NCBI GenBank assembly: GCA_013202495.1
Contig: JABMQQ010000185.1
Coordinates: forward strand, 1 to 23,442
Source of the DNA: Fidelibacterota bacterium
Lineage (GTDB): Bacteria > Fidelibacterota > UBA8477 > JABMPR01
Direction: 5' to 3'
DNA length: 23,442 nucleotides
A model generated the notes under the pieces. It did not search any database. It saw only the letters and a list, made by a program, of their open reading frames with translations, and was not told the origin of the DNA. A program made the position numbers and the translations under genes. Positions 6,281 through 19,972 of this stretch are shown here, in pieces. Position 1 is the first letter of the stretch. Each line of letters starts with the position of its first letter.

Positions 6281-6296
6281 TGTGGAATATTCTACA
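6281..6296 (+). promoter_or_regulatory. Single copy of the palindromic motif, TGTGGAATATTCTACA
   Basis: It is a near-perfect 16-bp palindrome 53 bp upstream of the 6349 start. It overlaps a possible -35 (TTCTAC) that sits 17 bp upstream of a TATTAT -10-like hexamer at 6313-6318. Confidence 0.45.
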
Positions 6297-6348: not shown

Positions 6349-7515
6349 ATGTCTGTGATCGAAAAGTTGAACAAAAACCGCATTTTAATGTGGCGGGTCG
6401 TAATTGTTATCTCTACCATATTAATATCCTATTTTCACTTCACAACACCCCCTGATGAAGGTCATATACACCTCATTCTAATGCAGTTTTACCTCATCCC
6501 AATTCTTATCGGTGCTGTCCAGTTTGGAGTCATAGGAGGATTTGGAACTGCCATAGTGATAAGTGTGATTGTTGCTCCACACATTATTTTTCAATGGATC
6601 GGGGGTGCTCAACACCATTTGTTGGGATATCTGCAAATTGCCATCTACAACGCAATCGGCTATTTAACTGGGTTGAAATCCCAGCTAGAAATGAAGGCTA
6701 GAAATCATCTTGCTGCCACGGCTGATCAGTTAACCCAAACACTTACTACCCTAGAAAAACAATCTGAAGAGATGGCGGAGCTTGAAGAACAGGTGAGTCA
6801 TTCAGAGCGCTTATCCGTGATCGGCGAACTCATGGCAAGTTTGGCGCATGAGCTAAGAAACCCTTTAGCATCTATTCGTGGGAGCGTGGATATCTTGAAG
6901 AAGGAGCTAAGCGAACACGAGAAGCGAGGTGAGTTCTTCCAAATACTGGTAAATGAGACAGAAAGAATGAGTGGGGTTGTTGAAAACTATTTGGCACTCG
7001 CTAGGCGTAGCAAGGGTGTCGAAGTTGAGTATGATATAATTGAGATCATAAGAAACACTTCCCTTTTATTAGCCAGTAGGGGACGCCGTGATCAAATAAT
7101 CATTAAGTGTAATCTTCCAGAGGAACCACTCGTGATAATGGGTGATCCAAACGACCTAAGACAAATATTGGTCAATCTGATTCTTAATGGGATTCAAGCA
7201 ATGGATAACCCGGGTGCAGTTTCTATTACCGCTCAGATAGAAGATAACGCTGAAAAATTATGTATCATCAACATAGAAGATGAGGGTACAGGTATTCTCG
7301 ATGAGCAATTCGAAAAACTGTTTGAACCATTTTTCTCAACCAAAGAGCAAGGGACAGGATTGGGTTTGAGCATTGTTAAGCGAATAGTTGAGAATAGAGA
7401 ATGGCAAATCCGAGTGGAGAATCGGAAACCCACGGGTAGTAATTTTACACTATCAATCCCTCTTGAAATAAATGAACCAGACCAGGCAACACAAGGATCA
7501 CAAACAAATGTATAG
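6349..7515 (+). CDS. Sensor histidine kinase with a membrane-embedded sensor of 4-5 transmembrane helices. It resembles NtrB, ZraS and AtoS partner kinases of sigma-54 regulators.
   Basis: The N-terminal roughly 110 aa are all hydrophobic helices carrying His residues (HIHLIL, APHIIF, AQHHLL). A coiled-coil follows, then the H-box MASLAHELRNPLASIRGS and HATPase_c motifs (LNGIQAM, GTGLGLSIVKRIVE). Its stop overlaps the response-regulator start by 8 bp. Confidence 0.9.
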   Translation: MSVIEKLNKNRILMWRVVIVISTILISYFHFTTPPDEGHIHLILMQFYLIPILIGAVQFGVIGGFGTAIVISVIVAPHIIFQWIGGAQHHLLGYLQIAIYNAIGYLTGLKSQLEMKARNHLAATADQLTQTLTTLEKQSEEMAELEEQVSHSERLSVIGELMASLAHELRNPLASIRGSVDILKKELSEHEKRGEFFQILVNETERMSGVVENYLALARRSKGVEVEYDIIEIIRNTSLLLASRGRRDQIIIKCNLPEEPLVIMGDPNDLRQILVNLILNGIQAMDNPGAVSITAQIEDNAEKLCIINIEDEGTGILDEQFEKLFEPFFSTKEQGTGLGLSIVKRIVENREWQIRVENRKPTGSNFTLSIPLEINEPDQATQGSQTNV

Positions 7516-8860
7516 TGTTTTACTTATTGATGATGATATGAGCCTAAGTCGGGTGTTGGGCTACCAACTGGAGCAAAGCGGATTTGATGTAGTTGTCGTG
7601 AATAGTGGCAAAGATGGTCTTGAACAGTTTAAAGAAAAGAGTTTCGATATTGTCGTCACAGATATTCAAATGCCAGATATGTCTGGAATTGAAGTCCTGG
7701 GCGAGATACGTAAAATTGATGTAAATATTGTCATTATTCTCATAACTGCCTATGGGAGTGTTGACAACGCCATCGAGGCTTGCCGTCTGGGGGCAGATGA
7801 TTATCTAACCAAGCCATTTGGCCAAGAGCAGCTGCTATTTGTAATTGAAAAGGCAATGCGTCTCCGGGAGCTTCAGTCGGACAACACAAAGCTCAGACGT
7901 GAATTAAAGGGCAAACATAATTTCAGCAACCTTGTCACGAATAATTCCGAGATGGAAAGTGTATTGGAAATGGCTGGGCAAATAGCAGATAGTGAAACAA
8001 CGACACTAATTCTTGGCGAGAGCGGTACGGGCAAAGAGCTCATAGCTAAAGCTGTTCATTACAATAGTTCTCGTGCCAAGAAACCACTTATCACGGTAAA
8101 TTGTCCTTCAATTCCCGACAATCTACTTGAGAGTGAGCTATTTGGACACGTTCGTGGATCCTTCACCGGAGCTATAAGGGACCGTAAGGGCAAGTTTGAA
8201 ATGGCTAATGGTGGTACAATTTTCCTCGATGAGATTGGAGACTTGCGTGAAACGGTGCAAGCTAAGTTATTGAGAGTTTTACAGGAGCAAGAAATTGAAC
8301 GTCTGGGTGATTCCAAAACTACAAAAGTAAATGTACGAATAATTGCAGCCACTAATAAAGACTTATGGCAACTCTCCCAAACGGGAAAATTTAGAGAGGA
8401 TCTATATTACAGGTTGAGTGTAATCCCTATCACAATTCCTCCACTGCGCGATAGATCCGGGGATGTACCGATACTAATAAATCATTTCCTAAAGAAATAC
8501 TCTAGAAGCAAAAACTTCAAAATAGATAGTGAAGTCTTTGATATTCTCGATCATTATTCATGGCCAGGTAACATCCGGGAACTTGAAAACCTTGTGCAAA
8601 GACTTGTTACCCTGACAAAAGGGGAGCTGATAACATCAAGTGATCTCCCAGGCCACATACGGTCATCAGAAGCTAATCTCAATCCTCTGTCGCTTAAAAT
8701 CCCTGCTGATGGTCTCTCCCTTCACGAAGTGGAAGAAAAACTCATCCGAGAAACACTTCAAAAAGCTAATGGCAACCAATCCAAGGCTGCAAGATTGCTA
8801 AAAATCCCCAGACATGTCCTATTGTATCGTTTGAAGAAATTAGGAATCGTCCACCAATAA
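7508..8860 (+). CDS. Sigma-54-dependent response regulator (NtrC family; REC + AAA+ sigma-54 activator + Fis-type HTH)
   Basis: REC domain: MYSVLLIDDD...DIVVTDIQMPDMSG...KPF. Walker A is GESGTGKE and Walker B is IFLDEIGDL. The sigma-54 contact loop reads VRGSFTGA, a GSFTGA variant of GAFTGA. The C-terminal HTH is QSKAARLLKIPRHVLLYRLKKLGI. The start at 7508 was chosen because it places the ATG overlapping the upstream kinase's TAG (ATGTATAG). Confidence 0.95.
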   Translation: MYSVLLIDDDMSLSRVLGYQLEQSGFDVVVVNSGKDGLEQFKEKSFDIVVTDIQMPDMSGIEVLGEIRKIDVNIVIILITAYGSVDNAIEACRLGADDYLTKPFGQEQLLFVIEKAMRLRELQSDNTKLRRELKGKHNFSNLVTNNSEMESVLEMAGQIADSETTTLILGESGTGKELIAKAVHYNSSRAKKPLITVNCPSIPDNLLESELFGHVRGSFTGAIRDRKGKFEMANGGTIFLDEIGDLRETVQAKLLRVLQEQEIERLGDSKTTKVNVRIIAATNKDLWQLSQTGKFREDLYYRLSVIPITIPPLRDRSGDVPILINHFLKKYSRSKNFKIDSEVFDILDHYSWPGNIRELENLVQRLVTLTKGELITSSDLPGHIRSSEANLNPLSLKIPADGLSLHEVEEKLIRETLQKANGNQSKAARLLKIPRHVLLYRLKKLGIVHQ

Positions 8861-8884: not shown

Positions 8885-8930
8885 TGTAGAATATTCTGCA
8901 CAATACCTGTAGAATATTCTACAAAATATC
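8885..8930 (+). promoter_or_regulatory. Two tandem 23-bp copies of the motif: CTGTAGAATATTCTGCACAATAC and CTGTAGAATATTCTACAAAATATC. The core TGTAGAATATTCTACA is a perfect 16-bp palindrome.
   Basis: Direct repeat with a 23-bp period, read directly. It lies about 105-150 bp upstream of the sigma-54 element at 9036. Confidence 0.6.
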
Positions 8931-9035
8931 ATCTATATCCAATTCTGGGCACCTATTAAGCTAGCTCAATAATTAACTTTAATATACTGTAAATACTAGA
9001 TATAAGCATTTCCAATCCTCGCGATATTTTGACTT

Positions 9036-9051
9036 GGCACGCAAGTTGGAA
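9036..9051 (+). promoter_or_regulatory. Sigma-54 promoter, TGGCACG-caag-TTGGA
   Basis: It matches the TGGCACG-N4-TTGCW consensus except for one base (TTGG in place of TTGC). The identical architecture recurs at 16220. The predicted TSS is near 9061-9063. Confidence 0.6.
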
Positions 9052-9436: not shown

Positions 9437-10708
9437 ATGCAAATCCAAAAATTGTTACTGCTAGTCACTCTAACGAGCCTAAGCTTTGGTCAAGTGACTG
9501 CAATTAAGCAAATAGACCTGCAGGATCTTATTAAGGAAGGTCTTTCTAACAATCCATTTAGACAGGCATACTATGAAGATATTGGCATTGCCGAATCTAA
9601 GGTTTCACAATCAGGAGCCCTGCCTGATCCGATGTTATCGCTCAACTTAATGAATTTACCTTTTGAGAATTTTGGGTTTGATCAAGAGCCTATGTCTGGG
9701 AAGCAAGTTGCATTTAAGCAGGGAATACCCTTTCCGGGAAAACTAGGCCTTAAGGAACAGATTGCAAAAGTAGGGGTTAAGATTTCGAACGACCAATATG
9801 CCGAAGTAAGCAACGGACTCGTAAGAGATATTTCTAAGACCTATTATGATCTATTCTTTGTGGACGAAGCGATAGCCACAATCGACAAAAACCGTCAATT
9901 AGTTTCTGAACTGCTCAAAGTAGCCGAACAAAAATATGCAGTTGGTAAAGGTTTACAGCAAGATGTACTAAAAGCCCAAGTAGAACTGTCACTTATGACA
10001 GAGAGACTCATTTCACTGAATCAAAGCAGAGACCGTATTGAAGCTAACCTAAACGCACTCTTAAATCGACCAATTGACCAATCTTTTGGATCCATACAGA
10101 AACCCCAGATCAAACAGTATTCACTGTCATTTGCTGAGCTTAAAGCAATTGGCGATGAGAATCGACCCCTGCTTAAGCAATGGCAGAATCGTATTGAGAG
10201 AAGTGGGAGAAAAATCGAATTAGCTAAGAAGAATCTTTTACCGGATTTTGCAATAAGCGCGGCGTATACCCAACGTGATATTCTTCAGAGCGGAATGGGT
10301 GGCGCTGACTTTCTTTCTACTGGGATTAGCCTCAATCTCCCGATTTATGCGAAAAGCAAACAAAAGCAAAATATCAACGAGAAACGGATAGAGCAGAAAA
10401 GTTTAGAGGAAAGACGTGAAGGTGTCCAGCAGAAAGTATACCGAGATATAAGTAACGGCTTAACAGAGCTAATCGAAAATACAGAATTGCTGGAGTTGTA
10501 TCGGACGGGAATTATCCCCCAGGCAGCACAGTCATTAGAATCAACGCTTACCGGATACCAAACTGACAAAGTGGATTTCCTGACACTTATCAGTAGTCAA
10601 ATGACACTGTTTAATCTCGAACTTGAATACGCAAAACTAATTAGCAAACATAACAAAAATATAGTTGATCTAGAGTTTTTCATTGGCACGTCTTTGCCTC
10701 TGAATTGA
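9437..10708 (+). CDS. Outer-membrane efflux protein (TolC / OEP family; CusC- or CzcC-like outer-membrane factor)
   Basis: Signal peptide MQIQKLLLLVTLTSLSFGQVTA with no lipobox Cys. It has the two-repeat OEP architecture with coiled-coil segments (LNQSRDRIEANLNALLNRPID, LELYRTGIIPQAAQSLESTLTGYQTDKVDFLTLISSQ). Confidence 0.85.
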   Translation: MQIQKLLLLVTLTSLSFGQVTAIKQIDLQDLIKEGLSNNPFRQAYYEDIGIAESKVSQSGALPDPMLSLNLMNLPFENFGFDQEPMSGKQVAFKQGIPFPGKLGLKEQIAKVGVKISNDQYAEVSNGLVRDISKTYYDLFFVDEAIATIDKNRQLVSELLKVAEQKYAVGKGLQQDVLKAQVELSLMTERLISLNQSRDRIEANLNALLNRPIDQSFGSIQKPQIKQYSLSFAELKAIGDENRPLLKQWQNRIERSGRKIELAKKNLLPDFAISAAYTQRDILQSGMGGADFLSTGISLNLPIYAKSKQKQNINEKRIEQKSLEERREGVQQKVYRDISNGLTELIENTELLELYRTGIIPQAAQSLESTLTGYQTDKVDFLTLISSQMTLFNLELEYAKLISKHNKNIVDLEFFIGTSLPLN

Positions 10709-10735: not shown

Positions 10736-12241
10736 GTGTTTCGGAGAATAAAAATGAGAACAGTAGTAAAAATATTGATAGTTGTACTAAGCATAGGGTT
10801 GGCGGCATTTGTTGTCAGTTGTGGATCAGCTAATTCAGACAGTAAGCATGAGCATACGAAAAATGCAGAGGGTCTATACACCTGTGGAATGCATCCCGAG
10901 GTTATTCTGGAAGGACCAGGCCAATGTCCTATCTGTGGTATGAACCTGACTCCCTTGAAACAGAATTCTGTCTCAACAGCCTCTTCCCAAAAACCAGATA
11001 GTGAGCGTAAAATACTGTACTGGCAAGCTCCCATGAATCCTGAAGAAATATATGATGAGCCCGGCAAGTCGAACATGGGAATGGATTTGGTCCCTGTATA
11101 TGATGATCAAACCAGCTCAGGTAGTCAAGTTTCAATCGATCCAAGTACAGTTCAAAACATGGGAGTTCGTACTGCTACTGTTCAGAGGCGGGACTTTAGC
11201 AGAAATATCCGAGCATTGGGCAAGATCGATTACAATGAAGAAAATATTTATGAGGTTTCCTCCAAGATATCTGGTTGGATCGAAAAACTATATGTGGACT
11301 ATACCGGGAAACCAGTCCGCAAAGGTCAGGCTTTATTGGAGTTATATTCTCCTGATTTGGTCACTACACAGCAAGAGTATCTGCTGGCTTTGAAAAACAG
11401 GGAGTTGATCAGCGAATCTAGCTTTGCGAGCATTCGCGAAGGTGCTGAATCCCTACTCTCATCCACCCGCCAAAGATTAGCCTATTGGGATATTCCTGAA
11501 AAAGAAATCCTACGCCTTGAGGATGGCGGCGTCGTCAGTAAGACCATTACTTTTGAATCACCTGCAGATGGAATTGTGATTCATAAGAACGCTGTTGAGG
11601 GCAAGCATATCAAAGAAGGTAGCTCTCTTTATCGAATAGCTGATTTGTCAACAATCTGGGTATTTGCAAGTCTCTATGACAATGAGGTACCGTGGGTGGA
11701 GGTTGGTCAGACTGCAGAAATGGAACTCTCATATGCTCCGGGAAAGATTCTGAAAGGAAAAGTGGCTTACATTTATCCTTATTTGAATGAAAAATCGCGT
11801 GATGTGAAGGTTCGCTTAGAATTTCCAAATCCAGATATGATGTTAAAACCAGGTATGTATGCGAATGTGAGCATTAAGACTCAATCCATCAAGGATGCAA
11901 TGGTTATTCCTTCTGAATCGGTGATCCGGTCAGGCGAAAGGATACTAACATTTATTGCAAAGGGTGAAGGCCGTTTTGAACCTCGTCCAATCAAAGTTGG
12001 GCAAGAGGGAGATAATGGAGAGGTTCTGGTTCTCGCTGGATTGACTGAGGGCGAGGAGATAGTTACCTCAGCTCAGTTCTTACTTGATAGTGAAAGTCGT
12101 CTACAAGAGGCTATCCAGAAGATGCTAAGTGAGAAATCGGCAGCAAGAACTGCAATGGAGCCAGAAGAGGAAGATATGGAGACAACCTCCATGGAATCCA
12201 TGGAGCAAGACTCTGATTCTGATATGGATCATTCTCACTGA
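10736..12241 (+). CDS. cusB: RND efflux periplasmic adaptor (CusB-like membrane-fusion protein) with an N-terminal CxxC heavy-metal-binding domain (HMBD) and an acidic, Met-rich C-terminal tail
   Basis: GTG start with a GAGGGGAG RBS 6 nt upstream. Lipobox VVSCGS. The HMBD (about 10877-10960) reads YTCGMHPEVILEGPGQCPICGMNLTPL. The HlyD/CusB-like core includes YSPDLV...EYLLA and GMYANVSIKT. The C-terminus is EPEEEDMETTSMESMEQDSDSDMDHSH. Confidence 0.85.
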   Translation: MFRRIKMRTVVKILIVVLSIGLAAFVVSCGSANSDSKHEHTKNAEGLYTCGMHPEVILEGPGQCPICGMNLTPLKQNSVSTASSQKPDSERKILYWQAPMNPEEIYDEPGKSNMGMDLVPVYDDQTSSGSQVSIDPSTVQNMGVRTATVQRRDFSRNIRALGKIDYNEENIYEVSSKISGWIEKLYVDYTGKPVRKGQALLELYSPDLVTTQQEYLLALKNRELISESSFASIREGAESLLSSTRQRLAYWDIPEKEILRLEDGGVVSKTITFESPADGIVIHKNAVEGKHIKEGSSLYRIADLSTIWVFASLYDNEVPWVEVGQTAEMELSYAPGKILKGKVAYIYPYLNEKSRDVKVRLEFPNPDMMLKPGMYANVSIKTQSIKDAMVIPSESVIRSGERILTFIAKGEGRFEPRPIKVGQEGDNGEVLVLAGLTEGEEIVTSAQFLLDSESRLQEAIQKMLSEKSAARTAMEPEEEDMETTSMESMEQDSDSDMDHSH

Positions 12242-12314: not shown

Positions 12315-15300
12315 ATGCTAGAAAAGATTATTGAAGCTTCAGTGAATAACCGATTCCTGGTCATCTTATTTACGGCTCTGATTGCTTTAGGGGGAATCTA
12401 CGCGGTTCTCAATACACCGATTGATGCTATCCCTGACCTCAGCGATGTTCAGGTTATCATTTTTACGGAATTTCCAGGACAAGCACCTCAGGTTGTCGAG
12501 GATCAGGTTACCTATCCACTTACCACAGCCATGTTGGCAGTTCCATATGCAAAAGTAGTCCGGGGATATTCATTCTTTGGTCTCTCATTCGTTTATATCA
12601 TTTTTGAGGATGACACTGATCTTTATTGGGCCCGAAGCAGGGTTCTTGAGTATCTGAATTACGTATCAAGTCGTCTCCCTGAAGGAGTTACACCGACCTT
12701 AGGTCCTGATGCGACTGGAGTAGGTTGGGTATACGAATATGTGCTGGACGGTGGAGATGAATATGATCTTCAACAGCTCAGATCTATTCAAGATTGGTAT
12801 CTCCGTTACCAACTAACTGGTGTGCCCGGTGTGGCAGAAGTGGCCAGTATTGGTGGCTATGTCAAACAGTATCAGGTAGAGATAGATCCCAATAAACTAC
12901 TCGCATATAACATTCCTATTCAAAAAGTGAAAATGGCTATCAAGCGCAGCAATAATGATGTTGGTGGAAAGCTCATTGAGATGGGCGAGACGGAATTCAT
13001 GGTGCGTGGACTGGGATATATCAAAAACAAAGAAGATATTGAGAAAATTGCGCTGGGCGTAGACTCCGAAGGAACACCCATTCTCATTAAACAGATTGCC
13101 AATGTCAATATAGGCCCTGAGTTACGTCGAGGAATAACTGATTGGAATGGTGAAGGAGAGGCCGTCGGAGGTGTAATTGTTATGCGCTCTGGCGAAAATG
13201 CTCTCAAAACTATTGAGCTTGTGAAGGAAAAACTTGAAGAATTGAAGAAAGGCCTTCCGGAGGGTGTGACTATCAAGTCTGCCTACGATCGTTCAGGCCT
13301 AATCAATCGAGCTATCGACAATTTGAGCTTAAAGTTACTTGAAGAGTTATTGGTAGTGGCGATCGTGTGTATTGTTTTCCTGCTCCATTTTCGGAGTGCA
13401 TTTGTAGCACTCTTCACATTACCAATGGGCATACTGGTATCATTTTTCATTATGTATTTCCAGGGTATTAATGCCAACATTATGTCCCTGGGAGGAATCG
13501 CAATAGCCATTGGAGCTATGGTTGACGCTGCTATTGTGATGATTGAGAATGCTCATAAGCACCTCGAAAGAGACAAAGGTAAAAAAGACCACTGGCAAAT
13601 CATTATCGATTCTTCCAAAGAAGTAGGACCGGCTTTATTCTACTCATTGTTGATTATCACAGTATCCTTTCTACCAGTATTCACACTAGAAGCACAGGAA
13701 GGACGCTTGTTCAAACCCCTCGCATTTACAAAAACGTATGCCATGGGTGCCTCAGCCTTCCTGGCGATTACCATTGTTCCCATTCTTATGGGTTATTTCG
13801 TTCGTGGTAAGATTCTCCCTGAAAACAAGAATCCAATAAGTCGCTTTCTTATGAAGATATATAGACCCATTATTCATGCAGTGTTGCGTTTTAAATGGGC
13901 AACCATTGTTATTGCCATAGTAATCATGGCAATAACCATAATTCCCCTTGGAAAAATTGGATCAGAATTCATGCCTCCACTCAACGAGGGTGATCTTCTA
14001 TACATGCCAACAACTGATCCTGGTATCAGTATTACTAAGGCAAAGGAACTTTTACAACAGACCGATAGGATCATTAAGAGTTTCCCTGAAGTTCACCACG
14101 TTTTTGGTAAGATTGGTCGTGCTGAATCAGCAACAGATCCTGCTCCTTTATCTATGATAGAAACAACAATAATGTTGAATCCTACAGATACCTGGCGTGA
14201 TGGAATGACCATTGAAAAGCTCATCCTTGAGCTGGACGCAGCTATCCAGTTTCCTGGATTAACCAATGCCTGGACCATGCCCATAAAAACGAGAATCGAT
14301 ATGCTTGCTACCGGTATCAAAACCCCAGTAGGCATCAAGCTAATGGGACCAGATCTGGAGGTTCTTTCAGACTTGGGACAAGAAATAGCCGGTGTGATCA
14401 AGGATGTTGAGGGGACCTTAAGTGTATTCCCCGACAAAACGATAGGTGGAAACTTCCTGGACTTTGACATCAAGCGTGACGAAATCGCCCGTTATGGTCT
14501 AACCGTCGGTGATGTACAAGATGTAATCATGTCCGCTATAGGTGGAATGAACGTGTCCTATACAGTTGAGGGGTTGGAGCGTTATCCAATTAATGTCAGA
14601 TATAGTCGTGAATTACGTGATAATATTTCAGCATTGAAAAGAGTTTTGGTTCCAACACCTTCGGGAGCTCAGATTCCAATGGAATATTTAGCAGAAATCA
14701 AGATCGTCAAGGGTCCCCCCGTCATAAAAAGTGAAAACTCACGCCAGACAGCCTGGCTATATGTTGACTTGAGAGGAATTGATGTTGGTACTTATGTAGA
14801 AAACGCAAAAAAGGTTGTGGAAGCCAATATATCATTTCCAGAGGGTTATAGTCTCGTTTGGTCTGGTCAATATGAATATATGGAACGTGCGGCAAAGAAA
14901 TTAAAGATCGTTATCCCTATAACTCTGCTAATCATCTTTTTGTTGCTATATTTCAATTTCAAGAACTTTACTGAAAGTGTGATTGTGATGTCCTCCCTAC
15001 CATTTGCTTTGGTAGGTGGTATCTGGTTCATGTATTTTCTGGATTACAACTTTAGTGTGGCTGTAGGTGTGGGATTTATCGCACTGGCTGGTCTAGCTGC
15101 AGAAACAGGTGTCGTCATGCTGGTCTACCTTGATAATGTGTTTGCTGAAAAAGTGAACAGTGGAAAAATGAGAAGCCTGACAGATCTTTATGATACTGTG
15201 ATCGTTGGAGCTGTTGAACGCGTTAGACCCAAGCTGATGACGGTAACAACCACCATGTTTGGACTTGTACCGATCCTTTGGGGAACTGAGGCTGGATCCC

Positions 15301-15569
15301 AAACTATGAAGCGTATTGCCGCGCCCATGGTTGGCGGAATGGTCTCCTCAACTATACTAACTCTCATAGTTATTCCTGCAATTTATTATCTCTGGAAATC
15401 GCGAGAAGTGAAAAGCATTATCAGCAAACTACAATTAGATGGTTCAACTGAGCCTGTTGAACTCATTTCCATTGATGCACACTCTGAAGAGACACCAATT
15501 GAAATCGAGGCAAAGCCAAATGAGAATCTCGATGATAATAATTCTACCAAGCTGGGACCAAACGAATAA
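12315..15569 (+). CDS. cusA: Heavy-metal-efflux RND pump, CusA-like (Cu(I)/Ag(I) type)
   Basis: 1084 aa with 12 transmembrane helices and two large periplasmic loops. The TM4 region AIAIGAMVDAAIVMIENAHK...GPALFYSLLIITVSFLPVFTLEAQEGRLFKPLAFTKTYAM is near-identical to the CusA signature as I remember it, and it lacks the CzcA-type acidic TM4. A roughly 60-aa acidic C-terminal extension is present. Confidence 0.95.
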   Translation: MLEKIIEASVNNRFLVILFTALIALGGIYAVLNTPIDAIPDLSDVQVIIFTEFPGQAPQVVEDQVTYPLTTAMLAVPYAKVVRGYSFFGLSFVYIIFEDDTDLYWARSRVLEYLNYVSSRLPEGVTPTLGPDATGVGWVYEYVLDGGDEYDLQQLRSIQDWYLRYQLTGVPGVAEVASIGGYVKQYQVEIDPNKLLAYNIPIQKVKMAIKRSNNDVGGKLIEMGETEFMVRGLGYIKNKEDIEKIALGVDSEGTPILIKQIANVNIGPELRRGITDWNGEGEAVGGVIVMRSGENALKTIELVKEKLEELKKGLPEGVTIKSAYDRSGLINRAIDNLSLKLLEELLVVAIVCIVFLLHFRSAFVALFTLPMGILVSFFIMYFQGINANIMSLGGIAIAIGAMVDAAIVMIENAHKHLERDKGKKDHWQIIIDSSKEVGPALFYSLLIITVSFLPVFTLEAQEGRLFKPLAFTKTYAMGASAFLAITIVPILMGYFVRGKILPENKNPISRFLMKIYRPIIHAVLRFKWATIVIAIVIMAITIIPLGKIGSEFMPPLNEGDLLYMPTTDPGISITKAKELLQQTDRIIKSFPEVHHVFGKIGRAESATDPAPLSMIETTIMLNPTDTWRDGMTIEKLILELDAAIQFPGLTNAWTMPIKTRIDMLATGIKTPVGIKLMGPDLEVLSDLGQEIAGVIKDVEGTLSVFPDKTIGGNFLDFDIKRDEIARYGLTVGDVQDVIMSAIGGMNVSYTVEGLERYPINVRYSRELRDNISALKRVLVPTPSGAQIPMEYLAEIKIVKGPPVIKSENSRQTAWLYVDLRGIDVGTYVENAKKVVEANISFPEGYSLVWSGQYEYMERAAKKLKIVIPITLLIIFLLLYFNFKNFTESVIVMSSLPFALVGGIWFMYFLDYNFSVAVGVGFIALAGLAAETGVVMLVYLDNVFAEKVNSGKMRSLTDLYDTVIVGAVERVRPKLMTVTTTMFGLVPILWGTEAGSQTMKRIAAPMVGGMVSSTILTLIVIPAIYYLWKSREVKSIISKLQLDGSTEPVELISIDAHSEETPIEIEAKPNENLDDNNSTKLGPNE

Positions 15570-15599: not shown

Positions 15600-15941
15600 A
15601 TGAAAGAGGTTAAAGCATTTATCCGGGGTGACAAGGCAGACGAAGTTATTGCAGCCTTGGAAGAAGTAGGAGTTATCAACTTGACTGTAATCAATGTGAT
15701 GGGTATAGGCCGGAGTCTTGCGCCTTCGAAAGGTGCAAAATACTCTGTTGATCTGACTCAGAAATATTCAACTATAGCCAAAATAGAGATTGTATGCAGA
15801 GCATCTGATACTGCGAAGATAGTGGATGTATTGCGGCAGTCTGCTTACACAGGCATGCAAGGCGATGGGATGATCTATGTTGTCCCAGTTGAAACAGCTG
15901 TCAAAATTAGAACTGGAGCATATGGGGGGGATGCGTTGTAA
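15600..15941 (+). CDS. PII-like (GlnB-fold) signal-transduction protein. It resembles the 'PII new group' linked to heavy-metal RND loci.
   Basis: It aligns by eye to GlnB: MKEVKAFIRGDK..VIAAL.EVGV..LTV..V.G.GR...KIEIV...D.AKIVDVL..SAYTG..GDGMIYV.PVE.AVKIRTG. The T-loop is shorter and lacks the Tyr51 context. The gene sits immediately after cusA, and a terminator follows it. Confidence 0.8.
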   Translation: MKEVKAFIRGDKADEVIAALEEVGVINLTVINVMGIGRSLAPSKGAKYSVDLTQKYSTIAKIEIVCRASDTAKIVDVLRQSAYTGMQGDGMIYVVPVETAVKIRTGAYGGDAL

Positions 15942-15981: not shown

Positions 15982-16036
15982 AGATGGGTGGGCTTTGATC
16001 CTCAATAGGATTAGGGCTCATCCATCTTTTCGTTTT
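15982..16036 (+). terminator. Strong intrinsic terminator with a 21-bp stem: AGAUGGGUGGGCUUUGAUCCU-CAAU-AGGAUUAGGGCUCAUCCAUCU, followed by UUUCGUUUU
   Basis: All 21 positions pair when six G-U wobbles are allowed. It ends the efflux operon 40 bp after the PII-like stop. Confidence 0.7.
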
Positions 16037-16130
16037 AATAGCTTACAATCCACAAAGCACCGCGCCAGATACCACAAAAACAAGACGGATATTACTTGTA
16101 CATTATTCAACACCGACGTCTAGATAATGA

Positions 16131-16148
16131 AGAATAGTCTACAATATC
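16131..16148 (+). promoter_or_regulatory. Copy of the motif, AGAATAGTCTACAATATC
   Basis: Same family as 4015-4034. It lies about 72-90 bp upstream of the sigma-54 element at 16220. Confidence 0.5.
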
Positions 16149-16219: not shown

Positions 16220-16235
16220 TGGCACGTGATTTGGA
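16220..16235 (+). promoter_or_regulatory. Sigma-54 promoter, TGGCACG-tgat-TTGGA
   Basis: Its architecture is identical to the element at 9036 (TGGCACG-N4-TTGGA). The predicted TSS is near 16246. Confidence 0.6.
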
Positions 16236-16433
16236 TTAAGTAGTCATGTGAAATTAAAATTTATACAGAACCAGCCCTTCAACATGACACAGCCGAGAGG
16301 GGTAAAAATTGAGGGCAGATTGCAACGTGGAGCTCAGGCGAGTTCAATGTCTCAGGTATACGGACACAGCACAGCCGATCTGCCCTATGAGAACAAGGCT
16401 TATAACGAGCCAATAAATAAAAGGAGTAGTAAG

Positions 16434-17006
16434 ATGACGAGAATGCAGTTTCTCACCAAAACGATGATGATGTCTTTGATGGTCTTTATCGCCGTTTCAA
16501 ATGTCAACGCCCAACATATGGGGGATAATCATCAAGATCAGGATCAAATGAGCGGGGATCAGACCACCCAGCATATGCATGAAAACATGCAGAATATGCA
16601 GCAAATGCAGCAGTCAAATATGATGACCATGGACGGTCAGAGCATGATGATGTCTATGGAAGAAATGATGGAGCATATGAGTCAATTGATGAACCATAGC
16701 GAAGCCATGCTTTCCAGCCTTGAAGACAGCGGCGATCACGGGTTAATGTCCATGTTCAGGGGTGATGATTCCGAGACTCATATGATGGAAATGACTGAAG
16801 ACATGACTGAGATGATGACAGGGATGAATGGATTAATGGAAAATATGCAGTCCATGATGGGCGATCAGGACATGATGAGCGAGGAAGGCATGCAGATGCA
16901 AATGGATAATATGCAATCGACTCTCAACGAAATGGTGGCATCAATGGATCAGATGATGGACAATATGCATAATATTCAAAAGCTTACTCCAAAAGTTAAG
17001 AAATAA
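16434..17006 (+). CDS. Secreted, extremely Met-rich acidic low-complexity protein, a putative periplasmic Cu(I)/Ag(I)-binding 'methionine sponge'
   Basis: AAGGAG RBS 7 nt upstream of the ATG at 16434. The Sec signal peptide is MTRMQFLTKTMMMSLMVFIAVSNVNA|QH. The mature part is packed with MxM, MxxM and HxxM motifs (MQNMQQMQQSNMMTMDGQSMMMSMEEMMEHM...MMEMTEDMTEMMTGMNGLMENMQSMM). The track's GTG start at 16248 would be leaderless relative to the sigma-54 TSS and adds 62 residues before the signal peptide, so it is unlikely. Confidence 0.7.
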   Translation: MTRMQFLTKTMMMSLMVFIAVSNVNAQHMGDNHQDQDQMSGDQTTQHMHENMQNMQQMQQSNMMTMDGQSMMMSMEEMMEHMSQLMNHSEAMLSSLEDSGDHGLMSMFRGDDSETHMMEMTEDMTEMMTGMNGLMENMQSMMGDQDMMSEEGMQMQMDNMQSTLNEMVASMDQMMDNMHNIQKLTPKVKK

Positions 17007-17025: not shown

Positions 17026-17832
17026 ATGCGCACCAAGAATCAAATTGTCAAAAAGCGTCTCCAAACGACGTGGCTGTTGCTAGCCTGGGTTGCAGGTTCT
17101 GCCCAGGCCGGCCAGTCATGGTCTCTTGCTACTTCAATGTCCTACAATCAAGGCACTTATGTGTATGAAAATACCATTGAAAATTATTACTTAAATTTAG
17201 GAGTAAGGTACAAACAGCCTCTGTGGTCAATCGCAGTAACTCTCCCAATCTTAGCTCAACAGGATAATCTTGAATTGGCTAGCTTTCCGGAGTCAGGCGT
17301 TGCGGATAGTAACGGCGTTCTGACTAACACCCACTGGGGTAACGTAAAAATGGGTGTAGGTGATTTATACATCTTTGGTCAACGCACAGTATGGCAGAAT
17401 TTTAAATCCAAAAGCTCGCTGTCTGCAACCTTTCAATTCAAAGTGCCCCTTGGATTTTCAAGTCAAACTTTTAGCTCACAGAAAAAGGATTACGGTGCAG
17501 GAATTCTATTTAAACAGTATCGGGGAGATTATTCATTTTTCACCGATTTGGGGTATCTGGTTTTAGGTAATCCTGAATGGGGAATCTACAAAAACCCAAT
17601 TAGCTATGGTGCCGGGATTGGCAGGACTTTCCTTCGTAAAACACTTTCCATGTCCATGTACTACCGTGCCTATACAGAAATAATAGACGGGATCTCTCCT
17701 CCTCAGCAGATTTCATTTGGCCTTTATGGCCGACTAAACCGCCAGTCTAACATATCAATAAATTGGACTCAGGGATTGAGTGAGAGCAGCCCGGATAGAG
17801 GCATATCTATGGGGCTAAGTAGGAAATTATAG
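17026..17832 (+). CDS. Putative outer-membrane beta-barrel protein
   Basis: Signal peptide ...LLLAWVAGSAQA. The mature part shows alternating hydrophobic/polar beta-strand periodicity with many Tyr, Gly and Trp residues. The family was not recognised. Confidence 0.55.
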   Translation: MRTKNQIVKKRLQTTWLLLAWVAGSAQAGQSWSLATSMSYNQGTYVYENTIENYYLNLGVRYKQPLWSIAVTLPILAQQDNLELASFPESGVADSNGVLTNTHWGNVKMGVGDLYIFGQRTVWQNFKSKSSLSATFQFKVPLGFSSQTFSSQKKDYGAGILFKQYRGDYSFFTDLGYLVLGNPEWGIYKNPISYGAGIGRTFLRKTLSMSMYYRAYTEIIDGISPPQQISFGLYGRLNRQSNISINWTQGLSESSPDRGISMGLSRKL

Positions 17833-17897: not shown

Positions 17898-18290
17898 ATG
17901 AAATCAATGATCGCAATTATAACACTTAGCACAGGAGTCCTCCTTGGTTGCCAGGATAAGGCCACAGAGCAGGTTAAACAAAGTTCAAGTATGGAACGGA
18001 TTCAAAAATCCGATGTGAGTCATGAGGATCACGATCATGCTAGTATGGAGAAGGCTGTTAGCCCTGAATACTACACATGTCCCATGGAGAGCCACAAGCA
18101 TATTAACAGTCAAGAGGCTGGAAGTTGTCCCGAATGTGGTATGACGTTAGTACCAGTAGTCGAAACGACCGCTGAAGATGCTGAATTTTATGGGTGTCCA
18201 ATGCCTGAACATAGTCATGTCAGAGCAGAAGAAGCAGGGTCATGCCCAGAGTGTGGAATGAACTTAAAACCGATGAAACTTGGCAGCTAA
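17898..18290 (+). CDS. Lipoprotein with two tandem CxxC heavy-metal-binding domains (HMBD), a putative periplasmic Cu(I)/Ag(I) chaperone
   Basis: Lipobox VLLGCQD. The His-rich linker is SHEDHDHASMEK. HMBD1 is YYTCPMESHKHINSQEAGSCPECGMTLVPV and HMBD2 is FYGCPMPEHSHVRAEEAGSCPECGMNLKPM. Both share the motif found in the CusB-like adaptor and the CopA N-terminus. Confidence 0.75.
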   Translation: MKSMIAIITLSTGVLLGCQDKATEQVKQSSSMERIQKSDVSHEDHDHASMEKAVSPEYYTCPMESHKHINSQEAGSCPECGMTLVPVVETTAEDAEFYGCPMPEHSHVRAEEAGSCPECGMNLKPMKLGS

Positions 18291-18345: not shown

Positions 18346-18762
18346 ATGAATAAAAGAACGCTTATGGTAGCAGCAATAATTCTGGGTGCATGCTTGCTAT
18401 TTTTTCAACCCATTTTTGCCAATGCGCTACCCGAAGATTGGGTAGCTCCCGCCAGTGCGGATTCTCTCCAAAGTCCGATAAAATCAAATTCTGATTCTTG
18501 GATGCCGGGGGAAGCCATATACAAAACAGCCTGTGGCGTATGTCATGGTGTAAGTGGGTTCGGTGACGGCATTGCCGCTGTAGCTCTAAATCCGAGACCT
18601 GCTGATTTAACATCCAAAGTGGTGCAAGATCAAAGTGATGGAGCCCTTTTTTGGAAGCTCACAACAGGTAAAACCCCCATGGCCAGTTATAAGGATGTGT
18701 ACACCGATCAGCAACGTTGGGAACTGGTTGAGTACATCCGCAACCTAGAGAAGAAGGATTAG
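18346..18762 (+). CDS. Monoheme class-I c-type cytochrome (periplasmic)
   Basis: Signal peptide followed by a single CGVCHG (CXXCH). A downstream ...DGALFWKLTTGKTPMASY... stretch supplies the Met sixth-ligand context typical of c552/c6-like cytochromes. It ends ...RWELVEYIRNL. Confidence 0.8.
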   Translation: MNKRTLMVAAIILGACLLFFQPIFANALPEDWVAPASADSLQSPIKSNSDSWMPGEAIYKTACGVCHGVSGFGDGIAAVALNPRPADLTSKVVQDQSDGALFWKLTTGKTPMASYKDVYTDQQRWELVEYIRNLEKKD

Positions 18763-18764
18763 AT

Positions 18765-19943
18765 ATGAAATATATTACAACACTATTGATTACGATTTGT
18801 GTATCTGTGTATGGTCAGGACTATTCAGATTTGCTCAAAAAAATTGAAAGCTCGAAACCTGGTGATAGCCAATTTCTGCTTCGGGGGTATGCTCACTCAG
18901 GATATGAAAAAAGGGGTGAAGAATCCAGTTTTGTGGGTGGAAGTTTTAATCCAATATTCCTATGGCGTCAATCTGATAAACTACTTTTTGAGGCGGAACT
19001 GGAATTAGAGCTCGAGCATGGAGAAACCGCTCTTGCTTTAGAATATGCAAACATGGCTTATGAGCTTCGGGACAACTTAACTGTCCGCGTTGGCATGTTT
19101 TTGCTTCCCTTTGGGACCTTCAGTGAACGTCTCCATCCTCGTTGGATAAATCGTCTACCTTCTAGCCCTCTAGGATTTGGCCATGATCCTATTGGTCCTA
19201 TGCGTGACATGGGAATCGAACTTAGAGGAAATACAAAACTCGGAAGCAGAAGCCTTAGCTATTCTCTTTATTCAACCAACGGACCCTCTTTAAATGACGG
19301 GGAAGATCACGATTTGAGTGAAGACGAGGCAGGGATGCTCAATTATCTAAACTTTGAGGACAATAATTCAAATAAAGCGATCGGTGGAAGGCTGGGAATA
19401 TTTCCACTTGCATCACCGGCTCTGGAGTTAGGCTTTTCGGGTCAGATCGCAGAAGTAGGTAATCACGAAACTGAATATGAAAACACTGCTGCCAATCTAT
19501 ATGCACTCGATATGTCATATGTTAATAATATCATTTTCCTAAAGGGTGTTGTAGATCTAAAGGGACAGTTGAATCAAATCAATGTTGATGATGAAAGTTA
19601 TTTCTCGGACGAGGATTCCTCCTCCTACTCATTTTTAAACCAAAGTCAAGCTTCCTATCTGCAGGCATCTTTTAGACCCGCATACGTGAGGAATTCATTT
19701 GTGAAGAATCTAGAAATAGTAGGAAGATACTCCCAAATTGAAACTCCTGAGGGAGCGCTTTGGGAATCAAATCAGTCACAATATGTAGTTGGTCTCAATT
19801 ATTGGTTGGATTGGCGAACTGTTCTCAAAATTGCCTACCAGGTAAATGAGAGCTCCGCAGCAGGTGGCCATGTTGAAGAAGACGAGCACGGGGATGAAGG
19901 TGGGGATAACGCAATACTCATTCACTGGGCATTTGGATTCTAA
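18765..19943 (+). CDS. Porin-like outer-membrane beta-barrel protein
   Basis: Signal peptide MKYITTLLITICVSVYGQ. The C-terminus is aromatic (ILIHWAFGF, ending in Phe), which is typical of outer-membrane proteins. An acidic His-containing loop (HVEEDEHGDEGGD) sits near the C-terminus. The gene starts 3 bp after the cytochrome stop. Confidence 0.65.
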   Translation: MKYITTLLITICVSVYGQDYSDLLKKIESSKPGDSQFLLRGYAHSGYEKRGEESSFVGGSFNPIFLWRQSDKLLFEAELELELEHGETALALEYANMAYELRDNLTVRVGMFLLPFGTFSERLHPRWINRLPSSPLGFGHDPIGPMRDMGIELRGNTKLGSRSLSYSLYSTNGPSLNDGEDHDLSEDEAGMLNYLNFEDNNSNKAIGGRLGIFPLASPALELGFSGQIAEVGNHETEYENTAANLYALDMSYVNNIIFLKGVVDLKGQLNQINVDDESYFSDEDSSSYSFLNQSQASYLQASFRPAYVRNSFVKNLEIVGRYSQIETPEGALWESNQSQYVVGLNYWLDWRTVLKIAYQVNESSAAGGHVEEDEHGDEGGDNAILIHWAFGF

Positions 19944-19972
19944 GTATACTTCACAATTAGAAGGAAATTAAC

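What the first reader, a model, noticed from the sequence alone, without database searches (positions are those of the whole stretch)
16434..17006. An extremely methionine-rich secreted protein, a candidate periplasmic Cu(I)/Ag(I) sponge
After a clear Sec signal peptide, the roughly 165-aa mature protein is about 30% Met and rich in Asp, Glu, Gln and Asn. It has dozens of MxM, MxxM and HxxM motifs and essentially no hydrophobic core. Met-rich motifs are the established Cu(I)/Ag(I) ligands in CusF, CusB, PcoE/SilE, CopB/PcoB N-termini and Ctr1 (established knowledge). This protein is far more Met-dense than any of those and is low-complexity, so it is unlikely to be a simple homologue. It is the first gene of a sigma-54-driven operon that also encodes an HMBD chaperone.
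Basis: partly seen in the sequence, partly recalled or inferred. Interest (0 to 1): 0.7.

Follow-up and report, generated by a model that had tools for sequence, protein, structure and literature searches.

The report
Methionine-zipper periplasmic protein of copper island
A real, conserved gene in a marine Marinimicrobia copper/silver-efflux island encodes an exported protein that is one-quarter methionine. It belongs to an unnamed family that is nearly always encoded next to an outer-membrane barrel protein, and it probably captures Cu(I)/Ag(I) in the periplasm, though metal binding has not been shown.

Summary
The ORF at 16434-17006 is real. It is under purifying selection (dN/dS 0.09-0.24) and starts at the ATG, not the upstream GTG. 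It encodes a signal peptide plus a 163-aa mature protein with 42 Met (25.8%), no Cys and a net charge of about -24.

It has no Pfam, NCBIfam or PDB relative and is not homologous to SilE, PcoB or CusF/SilF. It belongs to a small unnamed family: 42 cluster representatives among 1.84 billion, with named members only in Marinimicrobia, Calditrichota and Bacteroidota.

In 12 of 13 distinct contexts the next forward-strand gene is a homologous ~260-295-aa putative outer-membrane barrel (weak FapF/MetA-pathway similarity). In 10 contexts it sits in CusCBA/CopA-type gene sets, and one more has DUF411/CopG and a TonB receptor.

Here it heads its own unit behind a terminator. That unit has a sigma54-like promoter and the same upstream palindromes as the cusCBA promoter. 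The neighbouring CusA keeps the Cu(I)/Ag(I) three-Met site, and no CusF was found.

Best reading: a multi-site Cu(I)/Ag(I) binder working with the barrel and the Cus pump. Metal binding is inferred only.

The parts
15982..16037 (+). Intrinsic-terminator-like hairpin (20 pairs) plus T-run that ends the cusCBA/P-II unit.
   Evidence: It is the only + strand terminator-like site between 15500 and 23442.
16097..16143 (+). Two copies of the palindrome TGTAGAATATTCTACA (16097-16112 and 16128-16143). Probable upstream activating sites for the local sigma54-dependent response regulator.
   Evidence: 8 sites in the window against 0.22 expected. A pair at 8885/8908 lies upstream of the cusC promoter. 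The sites are conserved in L001 and L002.
16220..16234 (+). Sigma54-like promoter TGGCACG-N4-TTGG. The predicted transcription start is near 16245.
   Evidence: one of two exact matches in the window, the other at 9035 before the cusC operon. The same motif lies 187-216 nt upstream of the ATG in L001, L002, L010 and L011. The -12 element reads GG instead of the consensus GC.
16313..16385 (+). Conserved Y-shaped structured element in the ~188-nt 5' leader. Function unknown.
   Evidence: MFE -29.4 kcal/mol, z -2.9, with 2 compensatory pairs among 3 sequences. No Rfam hit.
16421..16426 (+). Ribosome-binding site AAGGAG, 7 nt before the ATG.
   Evidence: A GGAG-type site is found before the start codon in all 7 loci examined.
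16434..17006 (+). Met-rich protein gene (190 codons plus stop).
   Evidence: dN/dS is 0.09-0.24. Met columns are invariant in 25 of 42 cases against 21 of 121 for other columns (p = 6e-7).
16434..16511 (+). Predicted Sec signal peptide (residues 1-26, cut after VNA).
   Evidence: Read from the sequence. The family alignment keeps the AQ junction. Predicted as a helix, residues 2-24.
16512..16652 (+). N-terminal mature segment (residues 27-73). It is rich in His, Met, Asp and Gln, has low model confidence, and is largely specific to the Marinimicrobia subgroup.
   Evidence: pLDDT below 50 at residues 27-42 and 66-71, and a low-confidence helix at 46-64; gaps in most other family members.
16656..16985 (+). 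Family-conserved antiparallel three-helix coiled-coil domain (residues 75-184) with Met at the a/d positions.
17026..17832 (+). 268-aa exported protein, a putative outer-membrane beta-barrel and the constant genomic partner. It starts 19 nt after the Met-rich stop codon.
   Evidence: Homologues lie downstream of the Met-rich gene in all but one context (E 1e-83 to 1e-23). Weak hits to DUF3187, Phenol_MetA_deg and FapF.
17898..18290 (+). Lipoprotein (LLGC lipobox) with two HMBD metal-binding domains.
   Evidence: PF19335, E 8e-22, two stretches. Sequence.
12315..15569 (+). CusA-type Cu(I)/Ag(I) RND pump of the upstream operon.
   Evidence: 1260 bits to E. coli CusA against 560 to ZneA. M573, M623 and M672 and the TM4 motif A-x5-D-x6-E are conserved.
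10736..12241 (+). CusB-type adaptor lipoprotein with an N-terminal HMBD and a Met/Asp/His-rich C-terminal tail.
9437..10708 (+). CusC-type outer-membrane factor.
   Evidence: OEP, E 5.5e-40.
15600..15941 (+). P-II-like protein that follows cusA.
   Evidence: Conserved in the window, L001, L004, L007/L008 and L009; absent in L002 and L018 and replaced by an HMA protein in L012.
6349..8860 (+). Histidine kinase (6349-7515, membrane-embedded with no large periplasmic domain) and NtrC-type sigma54-dependent response regulator (7472-8860, GSFTGA motif).
8885..9049 (+). Palindrome pair (8885 and 8908) and sigma54-like promoter (9035-9049) of the cusCBA operon. The motifs match those before the Met-rich gene.

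Best explanation
Architecture (shown by computation):
- The gene encodes a Sec-exported, very acidic periplasmic protein of an unnamed family found in FCB-group bacteria.
- The mature protein has a disordered His/Met/Asp tail followed by an antiparallel three-helix coiled coil.
- The heptad a/d core positions of that coiled coil, and many flanking positions, are methionine.

Genomic association (shown):
- The gene is co-encoded with a putative 12-strand-type outer-membrane barrel, with spacers of 2-32 nt in the 7 contexts measured and an oppositely oriented small gene between them in L018/L019.
- In this genome it heads a transcription unit that carries the same sigma54-like promoter and upstream palindromes as the adjacent cusCBA operon.

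Mechanism (inferred):
- When the local kinase/NtrC-type regulator is activated by copper or silver stress, the protein is made together with the pump.
- Layers of Met thioethers between the helices, helped by His/Asp/Glu in the tail, bind several Cu(I) or Ag(I) ions. This would resemble the Met triads of Ctr1 and CusA.
- That buffers periplasmic Cu(I).
- The bound metal is passed to the partner barrel for exit across the outer membrane and/or to CusB/CusA.
- The protein would thereby fill the roles that CusF, PcoE/SilE and the His/Met-rich N-terminal region of PcoB play in enterobacteria.
For: The gene is real and exported:
- dN/dS is 0.09-0.24, and Met columns are 7-fold more often invariant than other columns.
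- The start is fixed by upstream stop codons in four loci and by a conserved ribosome-binding site.

Fold:
- Heptad Met periodicity, z 3.6.
- AlphaFold2 pLDDT 71-88 for three helices.
- PDB profile hits are antiparallel coiled-coil designs.
- Across the family, columns that are Met in the window are Met in 61% of cells and other hydrophobic residues in 25%. Overall composition is M 20.1% against L 4.4%. Met is therefore preferred at core positions.

Copper context, repeated in independent lineages:
- The window group.
- P0053 at 29% identity, P0017 and P0009, each after CusCBA plus a P-II or HMA protein.
- A Bacteroidota member after CusBA-DUF2231-DUF302-SHOCT-CopA-cupredoxin-YHS.
- P0037 with a TonB-dependent receptor and DUF411/CopG.
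- The one Met-poor member examined (9.8% Met) has no copper genes nearby but keeps the barrel partner.

Pump and regulation:
- CusA keeps the three-Met Cu(I)/Ag(I) site.
- No CusF-type domain is found in any locus.
- Shared sigma54-like promoters and palindromes, and a terminator before the unit.

Precedent: Met triads formed by three helices bind Cu+ in Ctr1 (PMC6437178). The His/Met-rich region of PcoB is needed for copper efflux (PMC12509749).
Against: - No metal-binding, expression or localisation data exist for any family member.
- The model is of medium confidence (mean pLDDT 70.9, pTM 0.46), and I could not inspect its coordinates to check that Met layers face each other.
- A Met-filled core could be purely structural, since Met is hydrophobic and is replaced by L/I/V/F in 25% of family cells.
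- The family was collected with a Met-rich profile, so Met conservation across it is partly circular.
- The link between Met content and copper context rests on a single Met-poor case.
- The -12 promoter element is TTGG, not TTGC, and the regulator's signal is unknown.
- One member (P0054) is followed by a cytochrome c rather than the barrel.
Confidence: 0.5

Rival explanations
1. The Met-rich protein is the cargo, not the partner, of the downstream barrel. Like FapF with its unfolded substrates, the barrel would export it across the outer membrane. It would then act on the cell surface or outside the cell as an extracellular copper trap.
For: The only solved relative of the barrel profile is FapF (E 0.0076, three colinear segments). 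FapF is a 12-strand gated channel that secretes unfolded proteins (PMC5557850). The gene pair is tightly coupled in most contexts, the cargo-like protein is Q/N-rich, and part of it has low model confidence.
Against: The FapF match is weak. The family also matches generic MetA-pathway/DUF3187 channel families. No FapD-like protease and no other fap-like genes were seen nearby. The protein is predicted to be a stable helical bundle, not an amyloid-type substrate.
Confidence: 0.13
2. It is a periplasmic helper of the barrel or of envelope proteins, such as a chaperone, plug or regulator in the manner of Spy/CpxP/ZraP. Its flexible Met surfaces would bind unfolded or hydrophobic clients. Met richness in copper islands would only protect that function, or tune it, under copper stress.
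For: The helix-bundle plus barrel pair also exists without copper genes in a Met-poor member that lies next to a rotamase. Met positions accept L/I/V/F. ZraP is likewise a sigma54/ZraSR-controlled periplasmic helical protein (established knowledge), and the regulator here scores 7e-120 to ZraR, below that model's cut-off.
Against: No LTXXQ/Spy/Metal_resist Pfam match in the window protein or among the 25 families most often matched by the 31 members. The kinase has no sizeable periplasmic domain to be contacted. Met is strongly preferred over Leu across the family (20.1% against 4.4%), which an ordinary hydrophobic surface does not require.
Confidence: 0.15
3. It is a sacrificial antioxidant sink like MrpX. 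[quoted passage not shown]
For: MrpX is a secreted peptide with 20% Met that scavenges hypochlorite (PMC4436054). Copper stress oxidises periplasmic Met residues (PMC9302797, title and abstract). Secreted bacterial proteins with 21-25% Met and no Cys are known, with no assigned function (PMC3514235).
Against: No MsrP/YedY, MsrQ or MsrA/B gene appears in any of the 13 contexts. Many Met residues sit at buried a/d positions rather than on an unfolded chain. The association is with Cu(I) transport genes.
Confidence: 0.07

Closest known systems
SilE / PcoE (enterobacterial periplasmic Ag(I)/Cu 'molecular sponges')
   Same: A small Sec-exported accessory protein of a Cus/Sil-type efflux island. It is rich in Met and His, helical when folded, and is the expected multi-ion binder. 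SilE binds 6-8 Ag+ (PMC5008109).
   Different: No homology: hhalign probability 1.4%, covering the signal peptide only, and no tblastn hit in 72,556 plasmids although silE is present in 3191 of them. SilE has 10 Met and 10 His in MxxH/HxxM motifs and is disordered without metal. This protein has 42 Met and 9 His, only 2 HxxM motifs, heptad periodicity and a predicted stable three-helix bundle.
PcoB / CopB (outer-membrane barrel with a disordered His/Met-rich N-terminal region)
   Same: It combines a His/Met-rich periplasmic element with an outer-membrane barrel in a copper resistance cluster. The PcoB N-terminal region is needed for copper efflux (PMC12509749).
   Different: Here the two parts are separate genes. 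There is no sequence relation to PcoB in either part (hhalign 0.1% and 0.2%) and no Pfam CopB hit. The Met-rich part is largely a folded coiled coil.
CusF / SilF (periplasmic Cu(I)/Ag(I) chaperone of CusCBA)
   Same: A periplasmic protein encoded with a CusCBA pump. A CusF gene is absent from these islands, so the role is vacant.
   Different: CusF is a small beta-barrel with one His/Met/Met/Trp site. This protein is all-alpha and Met-rich, and hhalign gives 0.2%.
Ctr1 selectivity filter and CusA three-Met site (Cu(I) bound by three thioethers)
   Same: Three helices presenting stacked Met side chains. In Ctr1, MX3M motifs from three helices form two Met triads, each binding one Cu+ (PMC6437178). 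The neighbouring CusA keeps its triad.
   Different: Ctr1 is a membrane homotrimer with two layers. This is a soluble single chain with up to about seven core layers, and metal occupancy is purely hypothetical.
Csp1/Csp3 copper storage proteins
   Same: Helical bundles whose core-facing residues are sulfur ligands and which hold many Cu(I) ions (abstract of PMC5171941).
   Different: Csp proteins are four-helix bundles lined with Cys. This protein has no Cys, three helices and thioether ligands, and no sequence relation was detected.
FapF (Pseudomonas amyloid secretion channel)
   Same: A 12-strand barrel with PTG-type motifs working with a periplasmic coiled coil (PMC5557850). The partner barrel profile hits only FapF in the PDB.
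   Different: The match is weak (E 0.0076). In FapF the coiled coil is fused to the barrel and is not Met-rich. No other fap genes are present.
MrpX and other secreted Met-rich proteins (MRP4-6)
   Same: Secreted, Cys-free, at least 20% Met (PMC4436054, PMC3514235).
   Different: MrpX is thought to be unfolded, is encoded with YedY/MsrP and is under SigF control. No Msr genes are present here. Homology to MRP4-6 could not be tested because their sequences were not retrievable.

Membership tests
SilE/PcoE | Detectable sequence homology to SilE/PcoE | tested here: not met
   hhalign of the family profile against SilE gives 1.4% probability, signal peptide only. tblastn against plasmids finds no match at E<=1, although silE is in 3191 records. 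No NCBIfam hit.
SilE/PcoE | Repeated MxxHxxxxxHxxM / HxxMxxxHxxM motifs with conserved His | tested here: not met
   Only 2 HxxM and 1 MxxH among 9 His. The motifs are as defined in PMC5008109.
SilE/PcoE | Intrinsically disordered without metal, folding on Ag+/Cu binding | not testable with these tools
   AlphaFold2 predicts three confident helices and a disordered N-terminal tail. The apo state needs CD or NMR.
CusF/SilF | Small beta-barrel (OB-like) fold with a His-Met-Met-Trp site | tested here: not met
   All-alpha model, no Trp, hhalign 0.2% to SilF, no Pfam CusF_Ec hit.
PcoB/CopB (tested on the 268-aa partner and the Met-rich protein) | Homology to the PcoB barrel or its N-terminal region | tested here: not met
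   hhalign A5 against PcoB 0.1%, A3 against PcoB 0.2%. No Pfam CopB hit at E<=10.
Spy/CpxP/ZraP (LTXXQ periplasmic helical proteins) | Match to the LTXXQ / Metal_resist profiles | tested here: not met
   The window protein has no such hit at E<=0.1. Neither family is among the 25 most often matched (of 102 families) by the 31 members. The most frequent weak hit is DUF948, in 16 of 31.
MrpX-type oxidant sink | Co-encoded with, or co-regulated with, a periplasmic methionine sulfoxide reductase (YedY/MsrP) | tested here: not met
   No Msr, Oxidored_molyb or Ferric_reduct domains in any neighbourhood.
MrpX-type oxidant sink | Secreted protein with at least 20% Met | tested here: met
   25.8% Met in the mature protein, with a signal peptide.
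Csp copper storage proteins | Cys-lined four-helix bundle | tested here: not met
   No Cys. Three main helices.
FapF / MetA-pathway (PF13557) / DUF3187 outer-membrane barrels (for the 268-aa partner) | Significant profile match and a 12-strand barrel fold | tested here: inconclusive
   All hits are below the curated cut-offs. DUF3187 in 7 of 12 members (best E 9e-4) and PF13557 in 5 of 12 (best 0.012). Precomputed weak PF13557 hits on homologues. FapF at E 0.0076.
CusA (for the neighbouring RND pump) | Three-Met Cu(I)/Ag(I) site (M573, M623, M672) and the A-x5-D-x6-E motif in TM4 | tested here: met
   Residue-by-residue alignment to E. coli CusA (PDB 3t51): 1260 bits, all three Met conserved, and the TM4 segment conserved with the A, D and E motif residues intact (one I-for-V change).
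Sigma54-dependent promoter | GG at -24 and GC at -12 with fixed spacing, plus an enhancer-binding protein and upstream sites | tested here: inconclusive
   TGGCACG-N4-TTGG at 16220 and 9035, conserved in L001, L002, L010 and L011. The palindrome occurs at 8 sites against 0.22 expected, with pairs 77-150 bp upstream of these two promoters. An NtrC-type regulator with GSFTGA is present. The -12 element reads GG, not GC, and no rpoN gene or transcript data are available.

The most novel reading that the evidence does not exclude
The family is a thioether counterpart of the Cys-lined Csp copper storage proteins. It would be a single-chain three-helix 'methionine zipper' whose stacked Met layers hold a row of Cu(I)/Ag(I) ions. 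It would work as the detachable periplasmic module of a previously unrecognised two-gene outer-membrane copper exit (or secretion) system, made of the helical protein plus a FapF/MetA-like barrel. This system would replace CusF, PcoE and PcoB in Marinimicrobia, Calditrichota and Bacteroidota.
Probability: 0.2. Interest if true: 0.85.

Novelty: new variant of a known kind. Interest (0 to 1): 0.6.

Why it matters
Periplasmic handling of Cu(I)/Ag(I) is understood almost entirely from enterobacterial proteins (CusF, SilE/PcoE, PcoB/C). Marinimicrobia and their FCB relatives are abundant in the ocean and in sediments, and their Cus islands lack these proteins.

This family is a concrete, testable candidate for the missing function. 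If Met layers inside a three-helix bundle really bind a row of Cu(I) ions, it would be a new natural design for soft-metal binding. That design would be of interest for bioinorganic chemistry, protein design and metal recovery.

The constant pairing with an outer-membrane barrel also points to an undescribed two-component envelope module. That module exists both with and without copper genes nearby.

Tried and rejected
- First AlphaFold2 run with only 6 close sequences: pLDDT 53, uninformative. It was superseded by the 31-sequence run.
- Foldseek against the PDB: nothing significant. The afdb50 library was unavailable.
- Single-sequence PDB search: only spurious coiled-coil hits, BORCS6 at E 0.0027.
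- Rfam scan of the whole window: no family.
- The search for related loci with the broad alignments A3 and A4 failed for lack of a conserved 7-10-column stretch.
- The word-indexed profile search added only one new protein, P0053.
- Cluster look-ups gave almost no names.
- The NCBI/UniRef label 'DUF4175 domain-containing protein' on two relatives was not reproduced. The window protein has no such hit, and DUF4175 is not among the 25 families most often matched by the 31 members at E<=0.1. I treat it as a composition-driven label.
- The upstream GTG start (16248), used by the gene callers for P0001 and P0002, is rejected for four reasons:
  - The extension would begin at the predicted transcription start.
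  - It is impossible in four related loci because of stop codons.
  - Its apparent conservation is explained by a conserved RNA-like leader with frame-breaking indels.
  - The conserved ribosome-binding site and signal peptide sit at the ATG.
- The reverse-strand His-rich ORF (16614-16739, 41 aa) is a by-product of ATG/CAT repetition.
- The paper on Nitratiruptor copper resistance held nothing relevant.
Full report
**1. The observation**

The ORF at 16434-17006 (+) is present as described.
- An AAGGAG ribosome-binding site lies 7 nt before the ATG.
- The first 26 residues, MTRMQFLTKTMMMSLMVFIAVSNVNA, have the layout of a Sec signal peptide.
- The mature protein has 163 residues, 42 of them Met (25.8%). 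Other residues: Q 11.7%, D 9.2%, S 9.2%, E 8.6%, N 6.7%, H 5.5%. It has no Cys, Trp or Tyr, and D+E = 29 against K+R = 5.
- The other 18 ORFs of the window have 1.7-7.3% Met.
- The gene is under purifying selection (dN/dS 0.09-0.24 wherever dS is not saturated).
- Its Met columns are invariant in 25 of 42 cases, against 21 of 121 for other columns among seven close homologues (p = 6e-7).

**2. The start codon**

Gene callers extended two homologues to an upstream GTG or ATG, and the extension looks conserved. I reject it for these reasons:
- In four related loci a stop codon lies 5-9 codons upstream of the ATG.
- The DNA alignment shows compensating 1-nt indels that change the frame between the window and L001.
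- The conserved stretch folds into a Y-shaped RNA-like element with two compensatory pairs.
- The GTG at 16248 sits at the predicted transcription start of the sigma54-like promoter.
- A GGAG-type site and the signal peptide are conserved at the ATG in all loci.

**3. The protein itself**

There is no Pfam, NCBIfam or PDB sequence match.
- The word-indexed search of 5.8 billion proteins found five relatives, at 45-100% identity. One of them, and the identical neighbouring barrel protein, are labelled Marinimicrobia. Two genome hits are Neomarinimicrobiota MAGs.
- A profile search of 1.84 billion cluster representatives found 42 proteins at E<=1e-3. Most are 150-200 aa with a signal peptide ending in AQ, and nearly all have 10-25% Met.
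- The few named members come from Caldithrix abyssi and Bacteroidota MAGs.

The family alignment shows a variable N-terminus, a first helix (MMSMxEMMxHM...), a Gly-rich linker, and two long helices joined by a D-P turn.

In the window protein:
- Met-Met spacing peaks at i+7 (19 against 10.2 expected, z 3.6).
- Helical moments peak at 100-105 degrees.
- The a/d positions are hydrophobic in 6/7, 8/9 and 9/9 cases.

Across the family, the positions that are Met in the window are Met in 61% of cells and L/I/V/F/A/W/Y in 25%. Mature composition is M 20.1% against L 4.4%.

So Met forms the core. Met is nevertheless specifically preferred over the usual coiled-coil residues. One caveat applies: a Met-rich query favours Met-rich hits.

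**4. Surroundings in the window**

Upstream, in order:
- a PAS histidine kinase;
- a membrane-embedded histidine kinase;
- an NtrC-type sigma54 activator with a GSFTGA motif;
- a small membrane ORF;
- CusC;
- CusB, a lipoprotein with an HMBD and a Met/Asp/His tail;
- CusA;
- a P-II-like protein.

CusA scores 1260 bits to E. coli CusA against 560 to ZneA. It keeps M573, M623 and M672 and the TM4 motif (residue numbers are established knowledge). A strong terminator-like hairpin follows the P-II gene at 15982-16037.

The Met-rich unit then begins:
- two palindromes at 16097 and 16128;
- TGGCACG-N4-TTGG at 16220;
- a leader of about 188 nt;
- the Met-rich gene.

The same promoter motif (9035) and palindrome pair (8885, 8908) precede the cusC operon. 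The palindrome occurs 8 times in the window against 0.22 expected. The promoter motif is conserved 187-216 nt upstream of the ATG in four related loci. In L004, L007, L009 and L012 the gene instead follows the P-II or HMA gene by 50-90 nt, inside the cus operon.

Downstream, with no + strand terminator-like site:
- the 268-aa protein;
- a lipoprotein with two HMBD domains;
- cytochrome c;
- a porin-like protein;
- cytochrome c;
- DUF302;
- DUF2231;
- the start of a CopA-type ATPase (22330 onward; YHS and two HMBD motifs).

No CusF-like domain was found in any locus.

**5. The constant partner**

The gene after the Met-rich gene encodes a 250-295-aa exported protein. It is homologous in every context where a downstream gene is visible, except P0054. 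hmmsearch E-values for the most distant loci are 1e-83, 2e-53, 3.5e-46 and 1.4e-23. Spacers are 2-32 nt in the 7 contexts measured; in L018/L019 a small gene on the opposite strand lies between the two.

It has GxGD and K-x-P-(T/x)-G motifs. All similarity hits are weak: DUF3187, Phenol_MetA_deg and, alone in the PDB, FapF. That fits an outer-membrane barrel of the 12-strand type, but this is not established.

**6. Context in distant relatives**

| Member | Identity or Met content | Context |
|---|---|---|
| P0053 | 29% identity (BLAST local alignment) | sigma54 regulator - CusCBA - P-II - gene - barrel |
| P0017 | 20% (MAFFT); 26% (BLAST local) | P-II - gene - barrel |
| P0009 | 32% identity | sigma54 regulator - CusCBA - HMA protein - gene - barrel |
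| P0036 (Bacteroidota) | - | CusBA - DUF2231 - DUF302 - SHOCT - CopA - cupredoxin - YHS - gene - barrel |
| P0037 | - | cytochrome c - kinase/LuxR regulator - TonB receptor - gene - barrel - DUF411 |
| P0043 | only 9.8% Met | no copper genes, but keeps the barrel partner, next to a rotamase |
| P0054 | - | at a contig edge, followed by a cytochrome c |

The two-gene pair is therefore the conserved unit. High Met content goes with copper genes in every case seen, although only one Met-poor case was examined.

**7. Mechanism**

Shown by computation:
- an exported protein;
- a heptad three-helix architecture with Met at the core positions;
- conserved linkage to a putative outer-membrane barrel and to Cu(I)/Ag(I) transport genes;
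- regulatory motifs shared with cusCBA.

Inferred:
- induction by copper or silver through the kinase/NtrC pair;
- binding of several Cu(I)/Ag(I) ions by thioether layers and the His/Asp tail;
- hand-over to the barrel and/or CusB/CusA.

Precedent exists for Met triads formed by three helices binding Cu+ (Ctr1, PMC6437178) and for a His/Met-rich element serving an outer-membrane copper channel (PcoB, PMC12509749).

Rivals are a secreted-cargo reading, a chaperone/regulator reading and an oxidant-sink reading. The oxidant-sink reading is weakened by the absence of any Msr gene.

**8. Comparison with known families**

Profile comparisons with real SilE, SilF and PcoB sequences, taken from a Salmonella IncHI2 plasmid, give probabilities of 0.1-1.4%. 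The protein is not a member of SilE/PcoE, CusF, PcoB, Spy/ZraP or Csp. It may work like a blend of them.

[quoted passage not shown] One, MrpX, is an oxidant sink (PMC4436054). I could not test homology to those.

**9. Verdict**

This is a real, rare, unnamed protein family with a distinctive 'methionine zipper' architecture and a conserved barrel partner, embedded in copper/silver efflux islands of FCB-group bacteria.
- The structural picture changes: a folded Met-core bundle plus a disordered tail, not a coreless sponge.
- A partner gene is added.
- Novelty: a new variant of a known kind (periplasmic Met-rich copper accessory proteins).
- Interest: 0.6.

Noticed in passing
window 16313-16385 (leader between the promoter at 16220 and the ATG at 16434): A conserved Y-shaped RNA-like element. 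The outer stem pairs GGGCAGAUUG with the downstream GAUCUGCCC segment and encloses two hairpins. It is conserved in L001, L002, L015, L016 and L017, with 2 compensatory pairs, MFE -29.4 and z -2.9. There is no Rfam match. L010 has different sequence but two hairpins in the same place. It is absent where the gene sits inside the cus operon. It may be a cis-regulatory leader.
   Followed up: partly
window 2098, 2119, 3991, 6281, 8885, 8908, 16097, 16128: The palindrome TGTAGAATATTCTACA occurs 8 times against 0.22 expected. The pairs at 8885/8908 and 16097/16128 lie 77-150 bp, and the sites at 2098/2119 and 3991 about 150-180 bp, upstream of sigma54-like motifs at 9035, 16220 and 4160 (TGGCATGCTAGTTGA) and probably ~2280 (TGGCATTGTTGTTGT). 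The site at 6281 has no such motif nearby. This suggests a regulon of at least four transcription units, including the EB_dh/Big_2 lipoprotein gene (2479-3864) and the PAS kinase gene (4256-6145).
   Followed up: partly
window 15600-15941 and related loci: A P-II-like protein (PF00543, E 6e-19) follows cusA in this window, L001, L004, L007/L008 and L009, with a faint DUF3240 hit in L007. It is absent in L002 and L018, and replaced by an HMA-domain protein in L012. Its role in an efflux operon is unexplained.
   Followed up: no
window 9062-9436: A small two-TM ORF (123-124 aa, no family) begins at the predicted transcription start of the cusC sigma54-like promoter. It would be nearly leaderless, or else this region is a long cusC leader. 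A gene of similar size is called in L005 and L007 but not in L001.
   Followed up: no
window 10736-12241: CusB carries a lipobox and an N-terminal HMBD (CGMHP...CPICGM). It ends in a Met/Asp/His-rich tail (EEDMETTSMESMEQDSDSDMDHSH), a second Met-rich element in the island.
   Followed up: no
window 6349-7515: The kinase paired with the sigma54 regulator has about 110 N-terminal residues of membrane segments with several His (EGHIH, APH, AQHH) and no sizeable periplasmic domain. If it senses metal, it would do so within or at the membrane.
   Followed up: no
window 18346-20245: A cytochrome c - porin-like protein - cytochrome c cassette sits inside the copper unit. It is present in the window, L001 and L007 and absent in L003 and L004 (L002 retains only the 90-aa gene), so it is an optional insertion.
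   Followed up: no
window 22008-22340: A 110-aa ORF with 7.3% Met and no family match overlaps the stop of the DUF2231 gene and directly precedes copA.
   Followed up: no
L022 6709-8059: A Met-poor member of the family (9.8% Met) keeps the barrel partner but lies among a sulfatase, a peptidase, an MscS channel and a rotamase gene, with no copper genes. This hints that the two-gene module predates its use in copper islands.
   Followed up: partly
window 16614-16739 (- strand): A His-rich 41-aa reverse-strand ORF is simply the complement of the ATG-rich coding strand (CAT codons). It is not a gene.
   Followed up: yes
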